DNA of 64,000 nt from Escherichia coli (GTDB lineage Bacteria; Pseudomonadota; Gammaproteobacteria; Enterobacterales; Enterobacteriaceae): the NCBI RefSeq assembly GCF_022846255.1, contig NZ_AP025682.1. One strand, 5' to 3'. This document shows, in pieces, positions 2,334 to 53,815 of this stretch. Each line of letters begins with the position of its first letter. The first letter of the stretch is position 1. The notes beneath the pieces were generated by a model, which saw only the letters and a list, made by a program, of their open reading frames with translations, was not told the DNA's origin and made no database searches. The translations under genes were made by a program, and so were the position numbers.

Positions 2334-4671
<2,338 letters not shown>

Positions 4672-4981
4672 GGTTCTCTCCCTAAAAATCTGTCTGGCAG
4701 GGTAGCGATTTGTGCGTATTGTCACGATTGAGATTTTTTAAGGTGAGAGGAAATTGATAACTTTTAGTTATGTGAAATCGCTATTTTCTGTAGCGTAGAT
4801 GTATTCTTCTGACTTCTTGTCTGAGAAAATGCATAAGAAAAAATAGGTTAAAATTGAGGGTGGAAAAGAAAGGTGCAATGTTTAGCCATTGTGTTCACCG
4901 CACCTGGACTTTGGCTTACGCATCGGGTATCTCAATCAACAAAAAGAGTTTTTAGTTTCTGCTATTTCTTCTCTGTAATTT

Positions 4982-22482: not shown

Positions 22483-23736
22483 GTGGAAGTAAAAATTGAG
22501 CAATTTCGAAATAACAGCTGTAATTTTATTTTTTTATTATATTTAATCGGTTTATTGTTTGTGCCAATTGATCTAAATATTACCACTAAAATAATTAATG
22601 CTACAGGTGCATTTTCTCTTTTTTTATTAATTGTAAATAACAAGCATAATTATAATAAAAATATCATTATATTAATTCTTGGCTTACTTCTTTTGGGTGC
22701 AATGAACCTGATATGGTATGAGTTTTATAAAACAGAAGATGTAGTATATAGAAATGCTTATCGAGGCTATCTTGAGTCTGGAAAACTATTAGTATTTAGC
22801 TCGTTGACATTTTTATTACTAAGTAAAAATAAATTCAGGCAAAATGAAAAGCTACATTTTATTTCAGCTATCTTAGTTCAAATAATCATGCTATGTAGAG
22901 CATATTATCAAGGGATATATTTGCATGCAGACCGCATTCCCCTCTCCGCCATGAATGGGAATATTGGTCAGATGGGGGCAGCGACTATTGCGGCTTATGT
23001 GATTACATTCACTACTTTATATTCTTCAATTGTATTCATCAAAATGCAATCGAAATATAAATGGTTTCTATTTTATGCTAACTTTGCTTTAAGCTTTGCA
23101 GCAGTAATGATGACAGGAACACGTGCGGCAATTTTCACATTCCCACTTATGATTATGGTCATATTATTTCTTCAGCATCGTGATCAAAAAGTGTTTTTAT
23201 TTAAAGGATTGAGTGGTGTTTTTATATTGCTACTTGCTTGTGGTTTGATATTTAATAAGGAAATTGAGAGGCGAATTAATTCATTAAAAGCTGATGTTAT
23301 TTCATATGCTACAAAAAATAACAGTCAATCCTCGGTCGGAGCACGTTTTGCAATGGTTAATGCAGGAATTAAAGGAAGTCCTGATGGTTTTAATTGGCAA
23401 TCTCTTGAGCAGCGTGCTGAAAAGATAAAAGCATTAAGTGCAGAAAATAATATTTATAGTGGAGCTTTATTATTCCTTGATGTACATATGCATAATGAAA
23501 TTGTTGAATCTCTTTCCACGAAAGGAAAAATTGGTCTTCTTGTTCTTATTATGTTCTATGTTGCAATGATCTATTACTGTATCCGGGAGAAAAAATATAT
23601 ACTCTTGGTTTTCCCTGCTTCTATTATGTTATTTGGCATTAGTGATGTCATTACACATGCTAAACCAATACCGGCATCGTGGATTGTGTGCCTCTTCCTG
23701 TCTATATCGTTTTTGAGTAAAAAAGAACCACAATAA
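22483..23736 (+). CDS. waaL: O-antigen ligase WaaL (polytopic membrane protein)
   Basis: 417-aa, highly hydrophobic, AT-rich ORF at the end of the central waa operon; the track start is a GTG at 22483 and the true start is uncertain; called from position and topology rather than sequence identity. Confidence 0.7.
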   Translation: MEVKIEQFRNNSCNFIFLLYLIGLLFVPIDLNITTKIINATGAFSLFLLIVNNKHNYNKNIIILILGLLLLGAMNLIWYEFYKTEDVVYRNAYRGYLESGKLLVFSSLTFLLLSKNKFRQNEKLHFISAILVQIIMLCRAYYQGIYLHADRIPLSAMNGNIGQMGAATIAAYVITFTTLYSSIVFIKMQSKYKWFLFYANFALSFAAVMMTGTRAAIFTFPLMIMVILFLQHRDQKVFLFKGLSGVFILLLACGLIFNKEIERRINSLKADVISYATKNNSQSSVGARFAMVNAGIKGSPDGFNWQSLEQRAEKIKALSAENNIYSGALLFLDVHMHNEIVESLSTKGKIGLLVLIMFYVAMIYYCIREKKYILLVFPASIMLFGISDVITHAKPIPASWIVCLFLSISFLSKKEPQ

Positions 23737-34240: not shown

Positions 34241-34484
34241 TGCGACAACCTCATACTCAAGAGTCAAAATTTGCGTAATTTTACTACAGCTGAATCGATA
34301 AAATAGCCTCTGAAGATCAAAATATACGACCGCTCGCGGCAAGCAGATGCCAGATTTACGCTTTTTTTTCGTAGCGCCCCGCAAAATTGCATTCCAGTTA
34401 ACGCGCTGGCTGTATTTGCCGCAACGCGCAGGTATACTCCTTTCCTGGTTTTTTTAATCACTACGTCGGGAGTTGTTACCCCCC

Positions 34485-49172: not shown

Positions 49173-49760
49173 TTACTTTTGAAAGGCTTTTTTTAAGCTG
49201 ATTTTGGAAATCAGCTCTGTCAGTGAAAGGACCATTGTTGATCGCACAGCCTGTTGGTAACGCTGAATTTGCATTGCATACAAACTGGAGTCTGCAGGTT
49301 CAAACTGTGGCGGCGGTGGTAACGCCGCCACGCAATGCAGTTCACCAAAGGGTCCAAGTATTTCGTCGTCGGTAAAAGCGTACTCGTTGCCGTCGTGATT
49401 TAGCTCTTCACGCAATGCCATCAGCAGTTCCGCATCTTCGTATTCCTGGCGGTTAATGACGCCCAACCCGTAAATGAGTTTTAAACGCACAGAAAGATCG
49501 CCCAGCGGACCATCGCCGTCGAGTAACGGTTCTACAGCATACTTCACCGCGTAATCGTCTTTGCGGAATACCTGAAGCACCAGAAGATTTACCGCCTCGG
49601 TCAAAAGCTCGACGGCGGTGATCAGAAAGCTTCGCACGGTTTTGCCAGCATTCAGACGCTCAAGCACACGGTTTTCAAAGGCCTGGGTTTGTTCCATTGT
49701 TGCCTGCATATCTGACAATCTGTTATTCGGGCGCAGGGTATCCTGCGCCTGGTCCACCAT
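49173..49760 (-). CDS. mtlR: Mannitol operon repressor MtlR
   Basis: 195-aa [56 protein letters not shown]... Confidence 0.9.
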   Translation of the reverse strand: MVDQAQDTLRPNNRLSDMQATMEQTQAFENRVLERLNAGKTVRSFLITAVELLTEAVNLLVLQVFRKDDYAVKYAVEPLLDGDGPLGDLSVRLKLIYGLGVINRQEYEDAELLMALREELNHDGNEYAFTDDEILGPFGELHCVAALPPPPQFEPADSSLYAMQIQRYQQAVRSTMVLSLTELISKISLKKAFQK

Positions 49761-50908
49761 TATTGCATTGCTTTATAAGCGGTTACCGCCTCGGATACAA
49801 CCTCGCTGTTGGCATCAAGACCGGAAATCTGTGCCAGCGCGGCTTGTGGGCCTTTGTCGGCAATCAGCGCTGCCAGTTCCTGAGCCTGCGGATCATCTTC
49901 ACTGCGGAAGTGCATTGCAGCGGCAATACCTTCAATCAGGTTTTTATGTGGCAGACCATATTCCAGGGTTCCGAGCAGTGGCTTGATCAGACGGTCGCCA
50001 GCACTCAGTTTACGCAGCGGCTGACGGCCTACGCGTTCTACATCATCTTTCAGGTACGGGTTCTCGAAACGACCGAGGATTTTCTGGATGTATGCCGCAT
50101 GTTTGTCAGCATCAAAGCCGTAGCGCTTGATCAATACCGCGCCGCTTTCTTCCATTGCCCCTTTTACCACCGCGCGGATTTTCTCGTCGAGAATTGCGTC
50201 ACGAATGGTCTGATGACCGGCCAGTTTTCCGAGGTACGCGGTTATAGCATGACCTGTATTCAGGGTGAAGAGTTTACGTTCGACAAATGCCATCAGATTG
50301 TCGGTTAATTCCATGCCAGGGATGTTTGGCAGCGTGCCTTTGAACTGCGTTTTATCGACAATCCATTCGCTGAAGGTTTCTACCGTCACTTCCAGCGGAT
50401 CGTTAGTTGCCGAAGCCGAAGGCGGTACGATGCGGTCAACGGCGGAATCAACAAAGCCAACGTGTTCTTCTACCCACGCTTTGGCATCTTCCGGCAGGGC
50501 GTTCATCACATGGCCTTTCAGCTGCGTGGTGCCGCGGACCATGTTTTCACAGGCGATGATGTTCAGCGGAGATTCATTACCTTGTTCTTTACGTTTCACC
50601 AGCCCTTTGGCGATGGCCGGAGCAATACGTTCCAGCACGACAGGGCCAACGGCGGTAGTGACTAAATCGACCTGAGCAATCAGATCAACGACATCATCGC
50701 CAATGCTGCTGACGGCATTGACGCCGGAAACGGTATCTACCTGCTCGGTTTCACCAACCACATGAACCTGATAGCTATGACGGGCATTCAGGGCATCAAG
50801 TACCACCTGATTTACATCGGCAAACGTCAGTTGGATACCCGCGTCCGCCAGCAGTTTACCGATAAAGCCACGACCGATATTACCTGCGCCAAAATGTAAT
50901 GCTTTCAT
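49760..50908 (-). CDS. mtlD: Mannitol-1-phosphate 5-dehydrogenase
   Basis: ORF contains [53 protein letters not shown]...; 382 aa from ATG at 50906-50908. Confidence 0.95.
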
Positions 50909-51002: not shown

Positions 51003-52916
51003 TTACTTACGACCAGCCAGCAGTTCCAGTACTTCATCCACGCTGGTGGTGTGTGCCAGACGCTCGATGACAGTCTCATCATCCAGTGCATTGGTCAGGC
51101 TGGTGATAACCTGAATGTGCTCGTTGTTACGGGCAGCAATACCAATCACCAGACGGGCAATGTCATCTTCTTCTTCACCGAAGCGCACGCCTTCCGGGTA
51201 CTGGCAGAACACCACGCCCGTTTTCAGTACGCGATCTTTTGCTTCAACCGTACCGTGTGGCACCGCGATAGACTCACCCAGATAAGTCGGGGTCAGTTTT
51301 TCACGATCCAGCATCGCCTGAACATATTCCGGCTCAACGTAACCGCCTTTCACCAGCTGCTCGCCAGCAAAACGAATCGCTTCTTCTTTGGTGGCCGCTT
51401 TGCGACCGAGGAAGATGTTCTCCGCGCCCAGTTTGAACAGATTAGCACTGGAATCGTCAAAGCTGTCTTTCAGACTGTCTTTCACTTTCACTTCGTTTTC
51501 AGTATGGCGCTGGGCAGCAACCAGACGTTCGGTCAGGCTGGTGTACAGGCCGCTGTCGAGGAAGTTGGTCAGCGAAATATGCTGTGCCTGCGGAACCTGG
51601 CGCATAGCGCGTTCGGTCAGGTCACGGTGAGTGATGACCAGGTCCACATCTGGCGGCAGGTTGTTGATCGCGCTGTTAGTAACAGAAATCTGCGACAGAC
51701 CTGCATCCTGAATTTTCTTACGCAGCACACCTGCGCCCATCGCACTGGAACCCATACCGGCATCACAGGCAACGATGATTTTACGTACGTGGCTCAGGTC
51801 GTTAGTCACATCGCCCGCAGACAGCGGAGATGCACCTTTAGACTCAGCTTTCATGTCCTGCATACGACGCGTTGCTGCTTCAATATCATCTTCTTCTTTC
51901 ACTTTGCTGGTTTTCAGCAGAATGGCAGAGACAACGAAGGAGACAGCCATCGCCGCACACACACCCGCGATGTTAGCGAAATAAGCACCTTTTGGTGTCA
52001 TCGCCAGTACAGCAAGGATAGAACCCGGAGATGCCGGAGAAACCAGACCACCGCCCAGGATAGTCAGCGTGAACACGCCAGTCATACCACCGAGGATAAC
52101 GGCCAGAATCAGACGCGGATTCATCAGCACATACGGGAAGTAGATTTCGTGGATACCCCCCAGGAAGTGGATGATTGCCGCACCGCCCGCAGACTGTTTA
52201 GCGCTACCACGACCAAAGAACATGTACGCCAGCAGCACGCCCATACCTGGACCTGGGTTAGCTTCAATCAGGAAGAAGATGGATTTACCCAGTTCATGGG
52301 ACTGCTGAATACCCAGCGGCGAGAAGATACCGTGGTTAATAGCGTTGTTGAGGAACAGGATTTTCGCCGGTTCAACAAAGATAGACGCCAGCGGCAGCAT
52401 GTCATGGACAACCATGAAGTTAACGCCCGCCGCCAGCATTTTAGACAGGGCTTCAACAACCGGGCCAATGCCGAGAAATGCCAGAATAGCGAGGATCATC
52501 CCGATGATGCCTGCGGAGAAGTTATTCACCAGCATTTCAAAACCGGATTTGATCTTACCGTCTACCCAGCGGTCGAAGTGCTTAATGCACCAGCCGCCCA
52601 GCGGACCTGCAATCATAGAGCCGAGGAACATCGGCATATCTGCGCCGACGATAACGCCCATGGTGGTGATGGCACCGACTACGCCGCCACGTTCGCCGCC
52701 TACCAGCTTACCACCGGTATAACCGATCAGCAGCGGCAGGAGATAAGTGATCATCGGCCCGACCAGCTTCGCCAGCGTTTCGTTCGGTAACCACCCTGTT
52801 GGAATAAATAACGCGGTGATGATACCCCACGCGATAAACGCGCCGATATTTGGCATCACCATGTTGCTGAGGAAACGACCAAAGCTTTGCACTTTGATCT
52901 TAATATCGGATGACAT
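51003..52916 (-). CDS. mtlA: PTS mannitol-specific EIICBA component
   Basis: 637-aa [59 protein letters not shown]... Confidence 0.95.
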
Positions 52917-53059
52917 AAAAACACCCCTTCTTATGTTTGCTGTCGCGCAGGCTGGAAGCCCGAGGTTTTTTGTTAATGTGGCGGCAGAGGTAGCCGGACC
53001 TTGTAGATACTGCGAAATCTGGCACTGAATCGGTTAACTGTCCAGTCGACGGCCTTTTG

Positions 53060-53236
53060 TGTGATATCAGTCACATAAATGTAGGGGGTAGAGAGGTAAT
53101 TGACGTGATGCTCATCACAAAATGCTTGTGTAAAAAAGCAACAAGGCGGCGATTTTCGCTAAAAATGGCATTTAAATGTGAGTGATGTCACATTTTTATT
53201 TTGATGGTTTGTTGAATCTTTGTGATCTGAATCACA
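53060..53236. promoter_or_regulatory. Cluster of CRP-binding sites in the mtlA promoter region
   Basis: Three perfect TGTGA-N6-TCACA sites at 53060-53075, 53177-53192 and 53221-53236, plus weaker half-site matches near 53104 and 53263; the mtl promoter is known to carry multiple CRP sites. Confidence 0.65.
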
Positions 53237-53452
53237 AGATATTTTCTTACGGCGTTCACCTGATGTGATCTACAGCATGTTATGCCTTCGTCATGAAATC
53301 GTTATGTAACTAAGCAACTCATCACCTCTTAAAATTATTCTTTGGTGTTATGGCGAGAATCGCGAACCCGGATTATTGTCAAAATATCAGCCTGACTCCC
53401 TTCTGGCTGCCAGCCAAAAAACAACACTGATAAACGTGAATCCGAGGCAGAT

Positions 53453-53815
53453 ATGTTTCTAAACTATTTCGCGTTGGGAGTGCTGATCTTCGTCTTTCTG
53501 GTGATTTTTTATGGAATCATCGCGATACATGACATCCCTTATCTGATTGCCAAAAAGCGCAACCATCCCCATGCTGACGCTATTCATACGGCGGGCTGGG
53601 TGAGCCTGTTTACTCTGCATGTTATCTGGCCGTTCCTGTGGATCTGGGCGACGCTCTATCAACCGGAGCGCGGCTGGGGTATGCAGTCACATGTTGCGTC
53701 GCAGGAGAAAACGACTGACGCGGAAATCGCCGCACTTTCTGACCGGATTTCCCGGCTGGAGCACCAACTCGCCGCCGAGAAAAAGACTGACTATTCCACG
53801 TTCCCGGAGATCTAA
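53453..53815 (+). CDS. yibI: Small inner membrane protein YibI
   Basis: 120-aa [72 protein letters not shown]... Confidence 0.8.

What the first reader, a model, noticed from the sequence alone, without database searches (positions are those of the whole stretch)
53060..53280. Dense cluster of consensus CRP sites upstream of mtlA
Three perfect TGTGA-N6-TCACA sites and at least two further half-site matches occur within about 220 bp of the mtlA upstream region. This density is unusually high and is consistent with the strong catabolite control known for the mtl operon.
Basis: partly seen in the sequence, partly recalled or inferred. Interest (0 to 1): 0.2.

Follow-up and report, generated by a model that had tools for sequence, protein, structure and literature searches.

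The report
Known five-site CRP array of mtl operon
The cluster is real and is the long-known control region of the E. coli mannitol operon, where five binding sites for the sugar-sensing regulator CRP switch the operon on and, through their exact 43-44 bp spacing, also give the DNA-blind repressor MtlR a place to dock; it is an ordinary, already published feature.

Summary
The only three perfect TGTGA-N6-TCACA sites in the 64 kb window (0.07 expected) lie at 53060-75, 53177-92 and 53221-36. A 9/10 site lies at 53104-19 and a 7/10 site at 53264-79. An independent CRP weight matrix ranks the five sites 1, 2, 3, 4 and 9 of 63,979 window positions.

The window is E. coli. The sites lie upstream of mtlA-mtlD-mtlR, which is on the minus strand. 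Their centres (53067.5, 53111.5, 53184.5, 53228.5, 53271.5) give spacings of 44, 73, 44 and 43 bp. These equal the published CRP5 to CRP1 sites of the mtl operator (-58.5 to -262.5).

The function is published. CRP activates the promoter, and pairs of CRP dimers 43-46 bp apart anchor MtlR, a repressor with no DNA-binding domain (Lee et al., NAR 2026).

My own comparison of 78 mtlA loci shows the four-site 44/73/44 lattice across all sampled Enterobacterales families, and near-identical lattices in Aeromonas, Tolumonas and some Vibrionaceae (Vibrio, Photobacterium). It co-occurs with mtlR and is absent from Firmicutes. The equally strict 73 bp inter-pair distance is a small addition that the main text of the 2026 paper does not discuss across species.

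Verdict: already known, low interest.

The parts
53060..53075 (-). CRP5: perfect TGTGA-N6-TCACA, centre 53067.5, published position -58.5. It is the promoter-proximal site, placed like a Class I site.
   Evidence: 18.0 bits, rank 2. The spacing matches PMC13421365. It aligns in 37 other loci with the exact lattice and is found in 46 loci by the lattice search.
53104..53119 (-). CRP4: 9/10 core match (TGTGATGAGCATCACG on the minus strand), centre 53111.5, published position -102.5. It lies 44 bp from CRP5.
   Evidence: (13.8 bits, rank 3).
53177..53192 (-). CRP3: perfect site, centre 53184.5, published position -175.5. It lies 73 bp from CRP4.
   Evidence: (19.3 bits, rank 1).
53221..53236 (-). 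CRP2: perfect site, centre 53228.5, published position -219.5. It lies 44 bp from CRP3.
   Evidence: (13.1 bits, rank 4).
53264..53279 (-). CRP1: weak site with a 7/10 core match, centre 53271.5, published position -262.5. It lies 43 bp from CRP2. The literature reports it as dispensable and poorly occupied.
   Evidence: (10.9 bits, rank 9). Among the sampled loci it appears only in part of the Enterobacteriaceae. One E. coli strain has an IS21-family insertion between it and CRP2.
53039..53044 (-). -35 hexamer TGGACA of the mtl promoter. I inferred the position from the published TSS offset.
   Evidence: Sequence. A 17-bp spacer separates it from the -10 hexamer. CTGGACA is conserved in the same column across Enterobacteriaceae.
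53016..53024 (-). Extended -10 element TG-c-CAGATT. The hexamer matches only 3 of 6 consensus bases, so the promoter is weak and activator-dependent.
   Evidence: it aligns with TGaTAGAGT in Yersinia, Serratia and Pantoea. The generic sigma-70 scan does not call it.
53009..53009 (-). Transcription start of mtlADR (about +/-2 bp). I derived it from the CRP5 centre at -58.5. The 5' UTR is about 93 nt (52917-53009).
   Evidence: Arithmetic. The start site itself comes from S1 mapping cited in PMC13421365 and was not tested here.
53024..53037 (+). Probable Cra (FruR) operator, ACTGAATCGGTTAA. It lies between the -35 and -10 elements.
   Evidence: It is a perfect match to RSTGAAWCSNTHHW, a consensus I recalled from memory. 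It is one of 4 such matches in the window, against 0.49 expected. It is conserved in Enterobacteriaceae. ChIP-exo places Cra on mtlADR (PMC5888115).
51003..52916 (-). mtlA, encoding the PTS mannitol transporter IICBA (EII-Mtl).
   Evidence: NF011663, 1323 bits. RefSeq annotation.
49760..50908 (-). mtlD, encoding mannitol-1-phosphate 5-dehydrogenase. The true start is at residue 62 of the listed ORF.
   Evidence: NF002648, 878 bits, match over residues 62-443.
49173..49760 (-). mtlR, encoding the repressor that has no DNA-binding domain and docks on paired CRP dimers.
   Evidence: (PF05068 MtlR, 223 bits) and PMC13421365.

Best explanation
This is the operator-promoter of the E. coli mtlADR operon.

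Five cAMP-CRP sites (CRP5 to CRP1, centred at -58.5, -102.5, -175.5, -219.5 and -262.5) sit upstream of a weak extended -10 promoter. CRP bound at CRP5 recruits RNA polymerase in the Class I manner. CRP2 and CRP4 are also needed for expression, and CRP3 for full expression, probably in an architectural, helical-phase-dependent role.

Adjacent sites 43-46 bp apart (CRP4/5, CRP2/3, CRP1/2) present two CRP dimers in the geometry that an MtlR dimer can bridge. MtlR has no DNA-binding domain of its own. It therefore represses the operon while anchored on CRP.

When mannitol is transported, dephosphorylated EII-Mtl (MtlA) sequesters MtlR at the membrane and the operon is induced. Dephospho-HPr, formed when glucose is present, releases MtlR back to the operator. 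Cra adds repression at a site inside the core promoter.

Shown here: the sites, their scores, the spacings, the genes, the conservation and the co-occurrence with mtlR. Taken from the literature: CRP binding, the MtlR ternary complex, the site mutants and the start site. Inferred: the promoter hexamers and the helical-phase reading of the 73 bp gap.
For: Identity of the locus: the window is E. coli, with 5,404 of 5,426 complete genomes matching. The genes are mtlA, mtlD and mtlR. There are no indels against K-12 across the operator.

The spacings 44/73/44/43 equal the published 43/44/73/44 read from CRP1 to CRP5.

Published experiments (PMC13421365):
- EMSA supershifts with MtlR appear only on site pairs 43-46 bp apart.
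- A malK operator re-spaced from 34 to 44 bp gains MtlR binding.
- Chromosomal mutants of CRP2, CRP4 or CRP5 lose expression, whereas the CRP1 mutant behaves like wild type.

Genomic SELEX found the yibI-mtlA spacer to be the second most abundant cAMP-CRP clone (PMC3105977).

My comparative test gave these results:
- Of 78 mtlA loci, 46 carry a four-site lattice within +/-1 bp of 44/73/44, and 39 carry it exactly.
- 54 of 56 loci with an mtlR homologue have at least one CRP pair at 43-46 bp. Only 3 of 22 loci without a visible mtlR have one, and two of those three loci are truncated.
- 0 of 588 control tiles and 3 of 1,560 shuffled upstream regions show such a pair.
- Firmicutes, a Fusobacteriales MAG, the alphaproteobacterium Pleomorphomonas and a Brenneria paralogue without mtlR have no array.
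- Core half-sites are at least 90% conserved, while the N6 spacers and inter-site sequence vary.
Against: I tested no binding or expression here. The mechanism rests on one recent paper plus older footprints that I could not read (Ramseier and Saier 1995 is not held).

The same laboratory reported in 2017 that it could not detect an MtlR-CRP interaction (PMC5320558). The 2026 result depends on CRP being bound to correctly spaced DNA.

CRP5 at -58.5 is about 3 bp off the canonical Class I position of -61.5. The inferred +1 base is a T, so the mapped start may be off by 1-2 bp.

My weight matrix was built from sites recalled from memory.
Confidence: 0.93

Rival explanations
1. The array is a pure activation and catabolite-repression device. 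On this view, many strong CRP sites simply make mtl very sensitive to cAMP, and the spacing has no further meaning.
For: CRP is essential for mtl expression, and the spacer is among the strongest CRP targets in genomic SELEX. Four of the five sites score 13-19 bits.
Against: The preference for glucose over mannitol persists with 5 mM cAMP and in a crr mutant. The 44 bp spacing is invariant to within +/-1 bp across orders and co-occurs with mtlR, which simple additive activation does not require. EMSA shows spacing-dependent MtlR docking.
Confidence: 0.05
2. Some or all of the sites, especially the distal CRP1 to CRP3, serve the divergent yibI-yibH operon rather than mtl.
For: yibI starts at 53453 on the opposite strand, 181 bp from the CRP1 centre. 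Shimada et al. note that CRP in divergent spacers often controls both promoters.
Against: The lattice keeps a similar distance to the mtlA start within related genera. It is present in 46 loci, of which only 12 have a yibI homologue upstream. CRP2 mutation abolishes mtl expression. A secondary effect on yibIH in Escherichia is not excluded.
Confidence: 0.02
3. The cluster is a chance or compositional artefact of an AT-rich intergenic region, or consists of inverted repeats left by a mobile element.
For: The intergenic region is 42% GC against 50% for the window. The sites are palindromes.
Against: 0 of 100 shuffles give 3 perfect sites. No shuffle reaches the observed cluster size. The positions are conserved across three orders, with variable spacers and conserved half-sites. 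There is one copy per genome in nearly all of the 5,404 matching genomes, always chromosomal (median 1, highest 2).
Confidence: 0

Closest known systems
E. coli K-12 mtlADR operator-promoter (Ramseier and Saier 1995; Lee et al. NAR 2026, PMC13421365)
   Same: It is the same locus. There are five CRP sites with the same centre-to-centre distances (43/44/73/44), and all 50 core half-site bases are identical to K-12. There are no indels across the operator. The -35 and -10 elements and the Cra match are the same.
   Different: There are 12 substitutions in the 536-bp intergenic region. Five of them lie in the N6 spacers of CRP3, CRP4 and CRP5. The window carries a minority allele, held by 233 of 5,426 genomes, at the CRP3 dyad centre.
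malEp-malKp divergent control region (four CRP sites plus MalT)
   Same: It is also a multi-site Class III CRP region in which several adjacent CRP dimers build a higher-order activating nucleoprotein complex.
   Different: Its neighbouring CRP sites are 34 bp apart. It does not bind MtlR unless re-spaced to 44 bp, and its specific co-regulator, MalT, binds DNA itself.
CytR-CRP repression complex at deoP2 and other CytR-regulon promoters
   Same: A specific repressor achieves selectivity by contacting two DNA-bound CRP dimers at tandem sites, turning the activator into a platform for repression.
   Different: CytR has its own LacI-type DNA-binding domain and an operator between CRP sites about 53 bp apart (from memory). 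Here the spacing is 43-44 bp and MtlR has no DNA-binding domain. Only one 7/8 CytR-like octamer is found, which is near chance.
Mlc sequestration by dephospho-EIICB-Glc (PtsG)
   Same: In both systems, induction occurs when a repressor is captured at the membrane by the dephosphorylated PTS transporter of the cognate sugar.
   Different: Mlc binds its operators directly. The CRP array plays no role in anchoring it.

Membership tests
cAMP-CRP binding site | Match to the 22-bp consensus AAATGTGA-N6-TCACATTT well above background | tested here: met
   The cores match 10/10, 9/10, 10/10, 10/10 and 7/10. The weight-matrix ranks are 1, 2, 3, 4 and 9 of 63,979 positions.
cAMP-CRP binding site | Located upstream of, or overlapping, a sigma-70 promoter at an activating position | tested here: met
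   CRP5 lies at -58.5 from the published start site. A conserved -35 TGGACA, a 17-bp spacer and TGcCAGATT lie downstream of it. The start site itself comes from the literature.
cAMP-CRP binding site | Physical occupancy by CRP (footprint, EMSA, SELEX or ChIP) | not testable with these tools
   The literature gives EMSA on each site pair, genomic SELEX with 38 clones and ChIP-exo.
cAMP-CRP binding site | Half-sites conserved in CRP-bearing relatives and absent from lineages without CRP | tested here: met
   Core bases are at least 90% conserved in 38 aligned operators. The Firmicutes, Fusobacteriales and Pleomorphomonas loci have 0 to 2 weak hits each.
MtlR-CRP anchoring operator (Lee et al. 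2026) | Adjacent CRP sites 43-46 bp apart, centre to centre | tested here: met
   The spacings are 44 (CRP5-4), 44 (CRP3-2) and 43 (CRP2-1). These are the only such pairs in the 64 kb window, even at a 7-bit threshold.
MtlR-CRP anchoring operator (Lee et al. 2026) | An MtlR (PF05068) repressor without a DNA-binding domain encoded in the operon | tested here: met
   mtlR lies at 49173-49760 and scores 223 bits against PF05068. mtlR co-occurs with the 43-46 bp pair in 54 of 56 loci.
MtlR-CRP anchoring operator (Lee et al. 2026) | EII-Mtl with a IIB domain available to sequester MtlR | tested here: met
   MtlA is a full-length IICBA protein of 637 aa (NF011663).
MtlR-CRP anchoring operator (Lee et al. 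2026) | [quoted passage not shown] | not testable with these tools
   This was shown for K-12 DNA, which has the same core half-sites and spacings.
CytR-CRP repression complex | Tandem CRP sites about 52-53 bp apart with a CytR operator (GTTGCATT repeats) between them | tested here: not met
   The spacings are 43, 44 and 73 bp. There is a single 7/8 octamer at 53135-53142, with 0.4 expected by chance.

The most novel reading that the evidence does not exclude
The 73-bp distance between the two CRP pairs (CRP3 to CRP4) is as tightly fixed as the 44-bp spacings. Among 51 gammaproteobacterial operators it is 73 bp in 44, 72 to 74 bp in 4 more, and 63 bp in Edwardsiella, which is exactly one helical turn less.

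This suggests that the four CRP dimers, with or without two MtlR dimers, form one rigid, phase-locked nucleoprotein assembly, or that an unidentified factor occupies the gap. The gap also holds a conserved T7 tract, and an AACAAA motif is conserved next to CRP2.

The main text of the 2026 paper treats the 73-bp gap only as non-permissive for MtlR. It mentions phase-dependent remote activation only as a possibility.
Probability: 0.35. Interest if true: 0.35.

Novelty: already known. Interest (0 to 1): 0.1.

Why it matters
The finding itself adds nothing new. The five CRP sites were footprinted in 1995, and the reason for their spacing was published in 2026.

It is a useful positive control for the scan, because a reader working from raw sequence recovered a real and unusually dense regulatory array at the exact coordinates.

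The comparative data gathered here add independent support for the spacing model. They show that the inter-pair distance and helical phase are also under strong constraint. This makes the paper's speculative idea of phase-dependent remote activation directly testable.

Tried and rejected
- **Generic promoter and terminator scan of 52880-53480.** It does not call the mtl promoter, whose -10 hexamer matches 3 of 6 bases. It reports only one antisense promoter-like match and one weak hairpin, both at chance level.
- **Rfam scan of 52800-53500 at E<=1.** No RNA family matched, so there is no evidence for an sRNA or riboswitch in the spacer or the 93-nt leader.
- **Hidden sixth CRP site in the 73-bp gap.** Only sporadic, non-aligned weak hits appear in two genera, and the best E. 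coli candidate matches 6 of 10 core bases by eye. I rejected this.
- **IHF and Fis consensus patterns.** There are no hits in the intergenic region. The Fis sites reported in the literature could not be placed.
- **CytR involvement.** I rejected it on spacing and motif grounds.
- **The array serving yibIH.** I rejected it as the main role on synteny grounds.
- **A divergent promoter built from the conserved AAAATA and AACAAA motifs flanking CRP2.** By my reading of the sequence, the best candidate hexamers would be 20 bp apart, which is too long, so I rejected it.
- **Primary sources.** The original footprint paper (PubMed 7551052) is not held, and the supplement of PMC13421365 is not held. 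I therefore could not check whether its Fig. S11 shows the 73-bp distance in other species.

Full report
**1. Observation**

Reading 52700-53700 and searching for the exact palindrome TGTGA-N6-TCACA gives three matches in the whole 64 kb window. They lie at 53060-53075, 53177-53192 and 53221-53236. Only 0.07 matches are expected, and no dinucleotide shuffle reaches three.

Allowing mismatches adds CGTGATGCTCATCACA at 53104-53119, with one mismatch. The fifth site, TGTGATCTACAGCATG at 53264-53279, has one perfect half-site and matches 7 of 10 core bases.

At two or fewer mismatches the window as a whole is not enriched (21 found, 26 expected). The signal is therefore the local cluster of near-perfect sites.

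I built a symmetrised 22-bp matrix from 19 classical CRP sites that do not include mtl, and scanned the window with it. The sites were recalled from the Stormo-Hartzell and Lawrence-Reilly promoter set, so this rests on my own knowledge rather than a database.

The five sites rank 1, 2, 3, 4 and 9 of 63,979 positions. Five hits of at least 9.5 bits fall within 220 bp, against at most three in 300 shuffles. Four hits of at least 12 bits fall there, against at most two.

**2. What it is**

The window is E. coli. An 801-bp query across the region matches 5,404 of 5,426 complete genomes, and the flanking genes are annotated as mtlA and yibI.

| Gene | Coordinates | Strand | Evidence |
|---|---|---|---|
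| mtlA | 51003-52916 | minus | NF011663, 1323 bits |
| mtlD | 49760-50908 | minus | NF002648, 878 bits |
| mtlR | 49173-49760 | minus | PF05068, 223 bits |
| yibI | 53453-53815 | plus | DUF3302 |

The site centres are 53067.5, 53111.5, 53184.5, 53228.5 and 53271.5. The spacings are therefore 44, 73, 44 and 43 bp.

Lee et al. (NAR 2026, PMC13421365) give the five CRP sites of the K-12 mtl operator as centred at -262.5, -219.5, -175.5, -102.5 and -58.5. That corresponds to spacings of 43, 44, 73 and 44 bp, an exact match. Their description of CRP1 as matching 7 of 10 conserved bases and CRP2 and CRP3 as matching 10 of 10 also agrees.

Alignment with MG1655 shows no indels across the operator. 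There are 12 substitutions in the 536-bp spacer, and none falls in the 50 core half-site bases.

From CRP5 at -58.5, the transcription start falls at about 53009 on the minus strand. This places a -35 hexamer TGGACA at 53044-53039, a 17-bp spacer and an extended -10 element TG-c-CAGATT at 53024-53016. The -10 hexamer matches only 3 of 6 bases. The generic promoter scan misses it, as expected for an activator-dependent promoter.

A perfect match to the Cra consensus RSTGAAWCSNTHHW (recalled from memory) lies at 53024-53037, inside the core promoter. It is one of four in the window, against 0.49 expected. This agrees with reports that Cra represses mtl and binds the mtlADR unit.

**3. How it works**

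These points come from the literature and are not tested here:

- CRP is essential for activation.
- Chromosomal mutants of CRP2, CRP4 or CRP5 lose expression and growth on mannitol. The CRP3 mutant is mildly affected, and the CRP1 mutant behaves like wild type.
- MtlR has no DNA-binding domain. In EMSA it supershifts CRP-DNA only when two CRP dimers occupy sites 43-46 bp apart. The malK operator gains MtlR binding when its 34-bp spacing is stretched to 44 bp, and the CRP3-4 pair gains it when 73 bp is cut to 44 bp.
- Induction occurs when dephospho-EII-Mtl sequesters MtlR at the membrane. Dephospho-HPr competes for MtlR, which explains the preference for glucose over mannitol.
- Earlier work showed that this preference is not relieved by 5 mM cAMP.
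- Genomic SELEX ranked the yibI-mtlA spacer second among cAMP-CRP clones.

**4. Independent comparative test**

A protein-based scan of one genome per species returned 80 mtlA loci. I scored 600 bp upstream of 78 of them with the weight matrix.

- A four-site lattice within +/-1 bp of 44/73/44 is present in 46 loci, and is exact in 39.
- It is found in every sampled Enterobacterales family: Escherichia, Citrobacter, Enterobacter, Klebsiella, Cedecea, Pluralibacter, Pantoea, Erwinia, Serratia, Yersinia, Rahnella, Pectobacterium, Hafnia, Budvicia and Providencia.
- Near-identical versions occur in Aeromonas (45/73/44), Tolumonas (45/74/43), some Vibrio (44/73/43) and a Photobacterium (45/73/43).
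- An mtlR homologue lies downstream in 56 loci, and 54 of these have at least one CRP pair at 43-46 bp.
- Of the 22 loci without a visible mtlR, only 3 have such a pair, and two of those three loci are truncated.
- No pair was found in 588 control tiles, and only 3 in 1,560 shuffled upstream regions.
- The mtlA loci from Firmicutes, a Fusobacteriales MAG and the alphaproteobacterium Pleomorphomonas, and a Brenneria paralogue without mtlR, have no array.

In an ungapped alignment of 38 operators anchored on CRP2, the half-sites are at least 90% conserved, while the N6 spacers and most inter-site sequence vary freely. The lattice is found with a yibI homologue upstream in only 12 of 46 loci, so it belongs to mtl and not to the divergent gene.

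CRP1 is detectable only in part of the Enterobacteriaceae, which is consistent with its dispensability.

**5. A small addition**

With a lower threshold, 51 gammaproteobacterial operators show two 43-46 bp pairs. The distance between the pairs is distributed as follows:

| Inter-pair distance | Number of operators |
|---|---|
| 73 bp | 44 |
| 72 bp | 3 |
| 74 bp | 1 |
| 63 bp (Edwardsiella, one turn shorter) | 1 |
| 131 or 168 bp (two cases with weak sites) | 2 |

At 10.5 bp per turn, 73 bp is 6.95 turns, so CRP3 and CRP4 lie on the same face of the helix.

The main text of the 2026 paper treats the 73-bp gap only as non-permissive for MtlR. It offers helical-phase-dependent remote activation as a speculation. 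Its cross-species check covered four species and reports only the 43-44 bp pairs, and its supplement is not held here. The conservation shown here supports a phase-locked assembly of both pairs, but it does not prove one.

**6. Comparison with known systems and novelty**

This is the same locus as the published K-12 mtl operator, not merely a relative of it.

It works like a Class III multi-CRP promoter, with malE-malK as the closest analogue. Its repression resembles the CytR-CRP complex at deoP2, but the CytR membership test fails on both spacing and operator motif. Its induction resembles Mlc sequestration by PtsG.

The novelty class is "already known", and I score interest at 0.1.

**7. 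Leads that went nowhere**

No Rfam family matched the region. No IHF or Fis consensus was found. There is no consistent sixth CRP site in the gap.

Noticed in passing
window 53182-53185 (CRP3 N6) and 53109-53111 (CRP4 N6): Within E. coli, polymorphism in the operator is concentrated in the central spacers of CRP3 and CRP4. I compared 12 genomes by a hand re-tally, leaving out the IS21-disrupted strain L091. Polymorphic positions were 9 of 30 in the N6 spacers, 1 of 50 in the core, about 15 of 146 elsewhere in the operator, and about 17 of 308 in the rest of the spacer.

The two dyad-centre bases of CRP3 (53184-85, plus strand) occur as five alleles among 5,426 genomes: AG in 3,246, AA in 1,383, TA in 405, GA in 233 (the window's allele) and GG in 26. 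In all of these the 28 flanking bases are identical.

All four combinations of two adjacent bases occur, and the same allele appears on different flanking haplotypes. This hints at recurrent mutation, or at selection that tunes the site. The N6 spacer of CRP2 is invariant.
   Followed up: partly
L092 (E. coli GPEC1054, NZ_CM142793.1), corresponding to window 53252/53253: In this strain, homology to the operator stops between CRP2 and CRP1. An IS21-family element (istA and istB) sits there. It is a natural variant that separates CRP1 from the operator, which is consistent with CRP1 being dispensable.
   Followed up: partly
window 53208-53213, 53240-53245 and about 53133-53139 (minus-strand motifs AACAAA, AAAATA and T7): Three short motifs outside the CRP cores are conserved in at least 70-90% of 38 aligned operators. 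AAAATA lies 3 bp upstream of the CRP2 core (TGTGA), AACAAA lies 7 bp downstream of it, and a run of seven T lies about 22-28 bp upstream of the CRP4 centre, inside the 73-bp gap. They may be bending tracts or the site of another factor. They are not explained.
   Followed up: no
window 53024-53037 (+): ACTGAATCGGTTAA is a perfect match to the Cra/FruR consensus. It lies between the -35 and -10 elements of the mtl promoter and is conserved in Enterobacteriaceae. Three other perfect matches in the window, at 34289, 45901 and 54282, were not examined.
   Followed up: partly
window 22998-23163: Three loose CRP-like matches fall within 165 bp: one with one mismatch at 22998-23013 and two with two mismatches at 23124 and 23148. 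They lie inside a 417-aa ORF (22483-23736) in a region of 34-35% GC. Their weight-matrix scores are modest (10.6, 5.5 and 5.2 bits), so this is most likely a compositional coincidence.
   Followed up: partly
window 4708-4729: The best CRP weight-matrix hit outside the mtl operator is ATTTGTGCGTATTGTCACGATT, at 12.3 bits and rank 5. A second hit lies at 4549-4570 (11.0 bits). The gene context was not examined.
   Followed up: no
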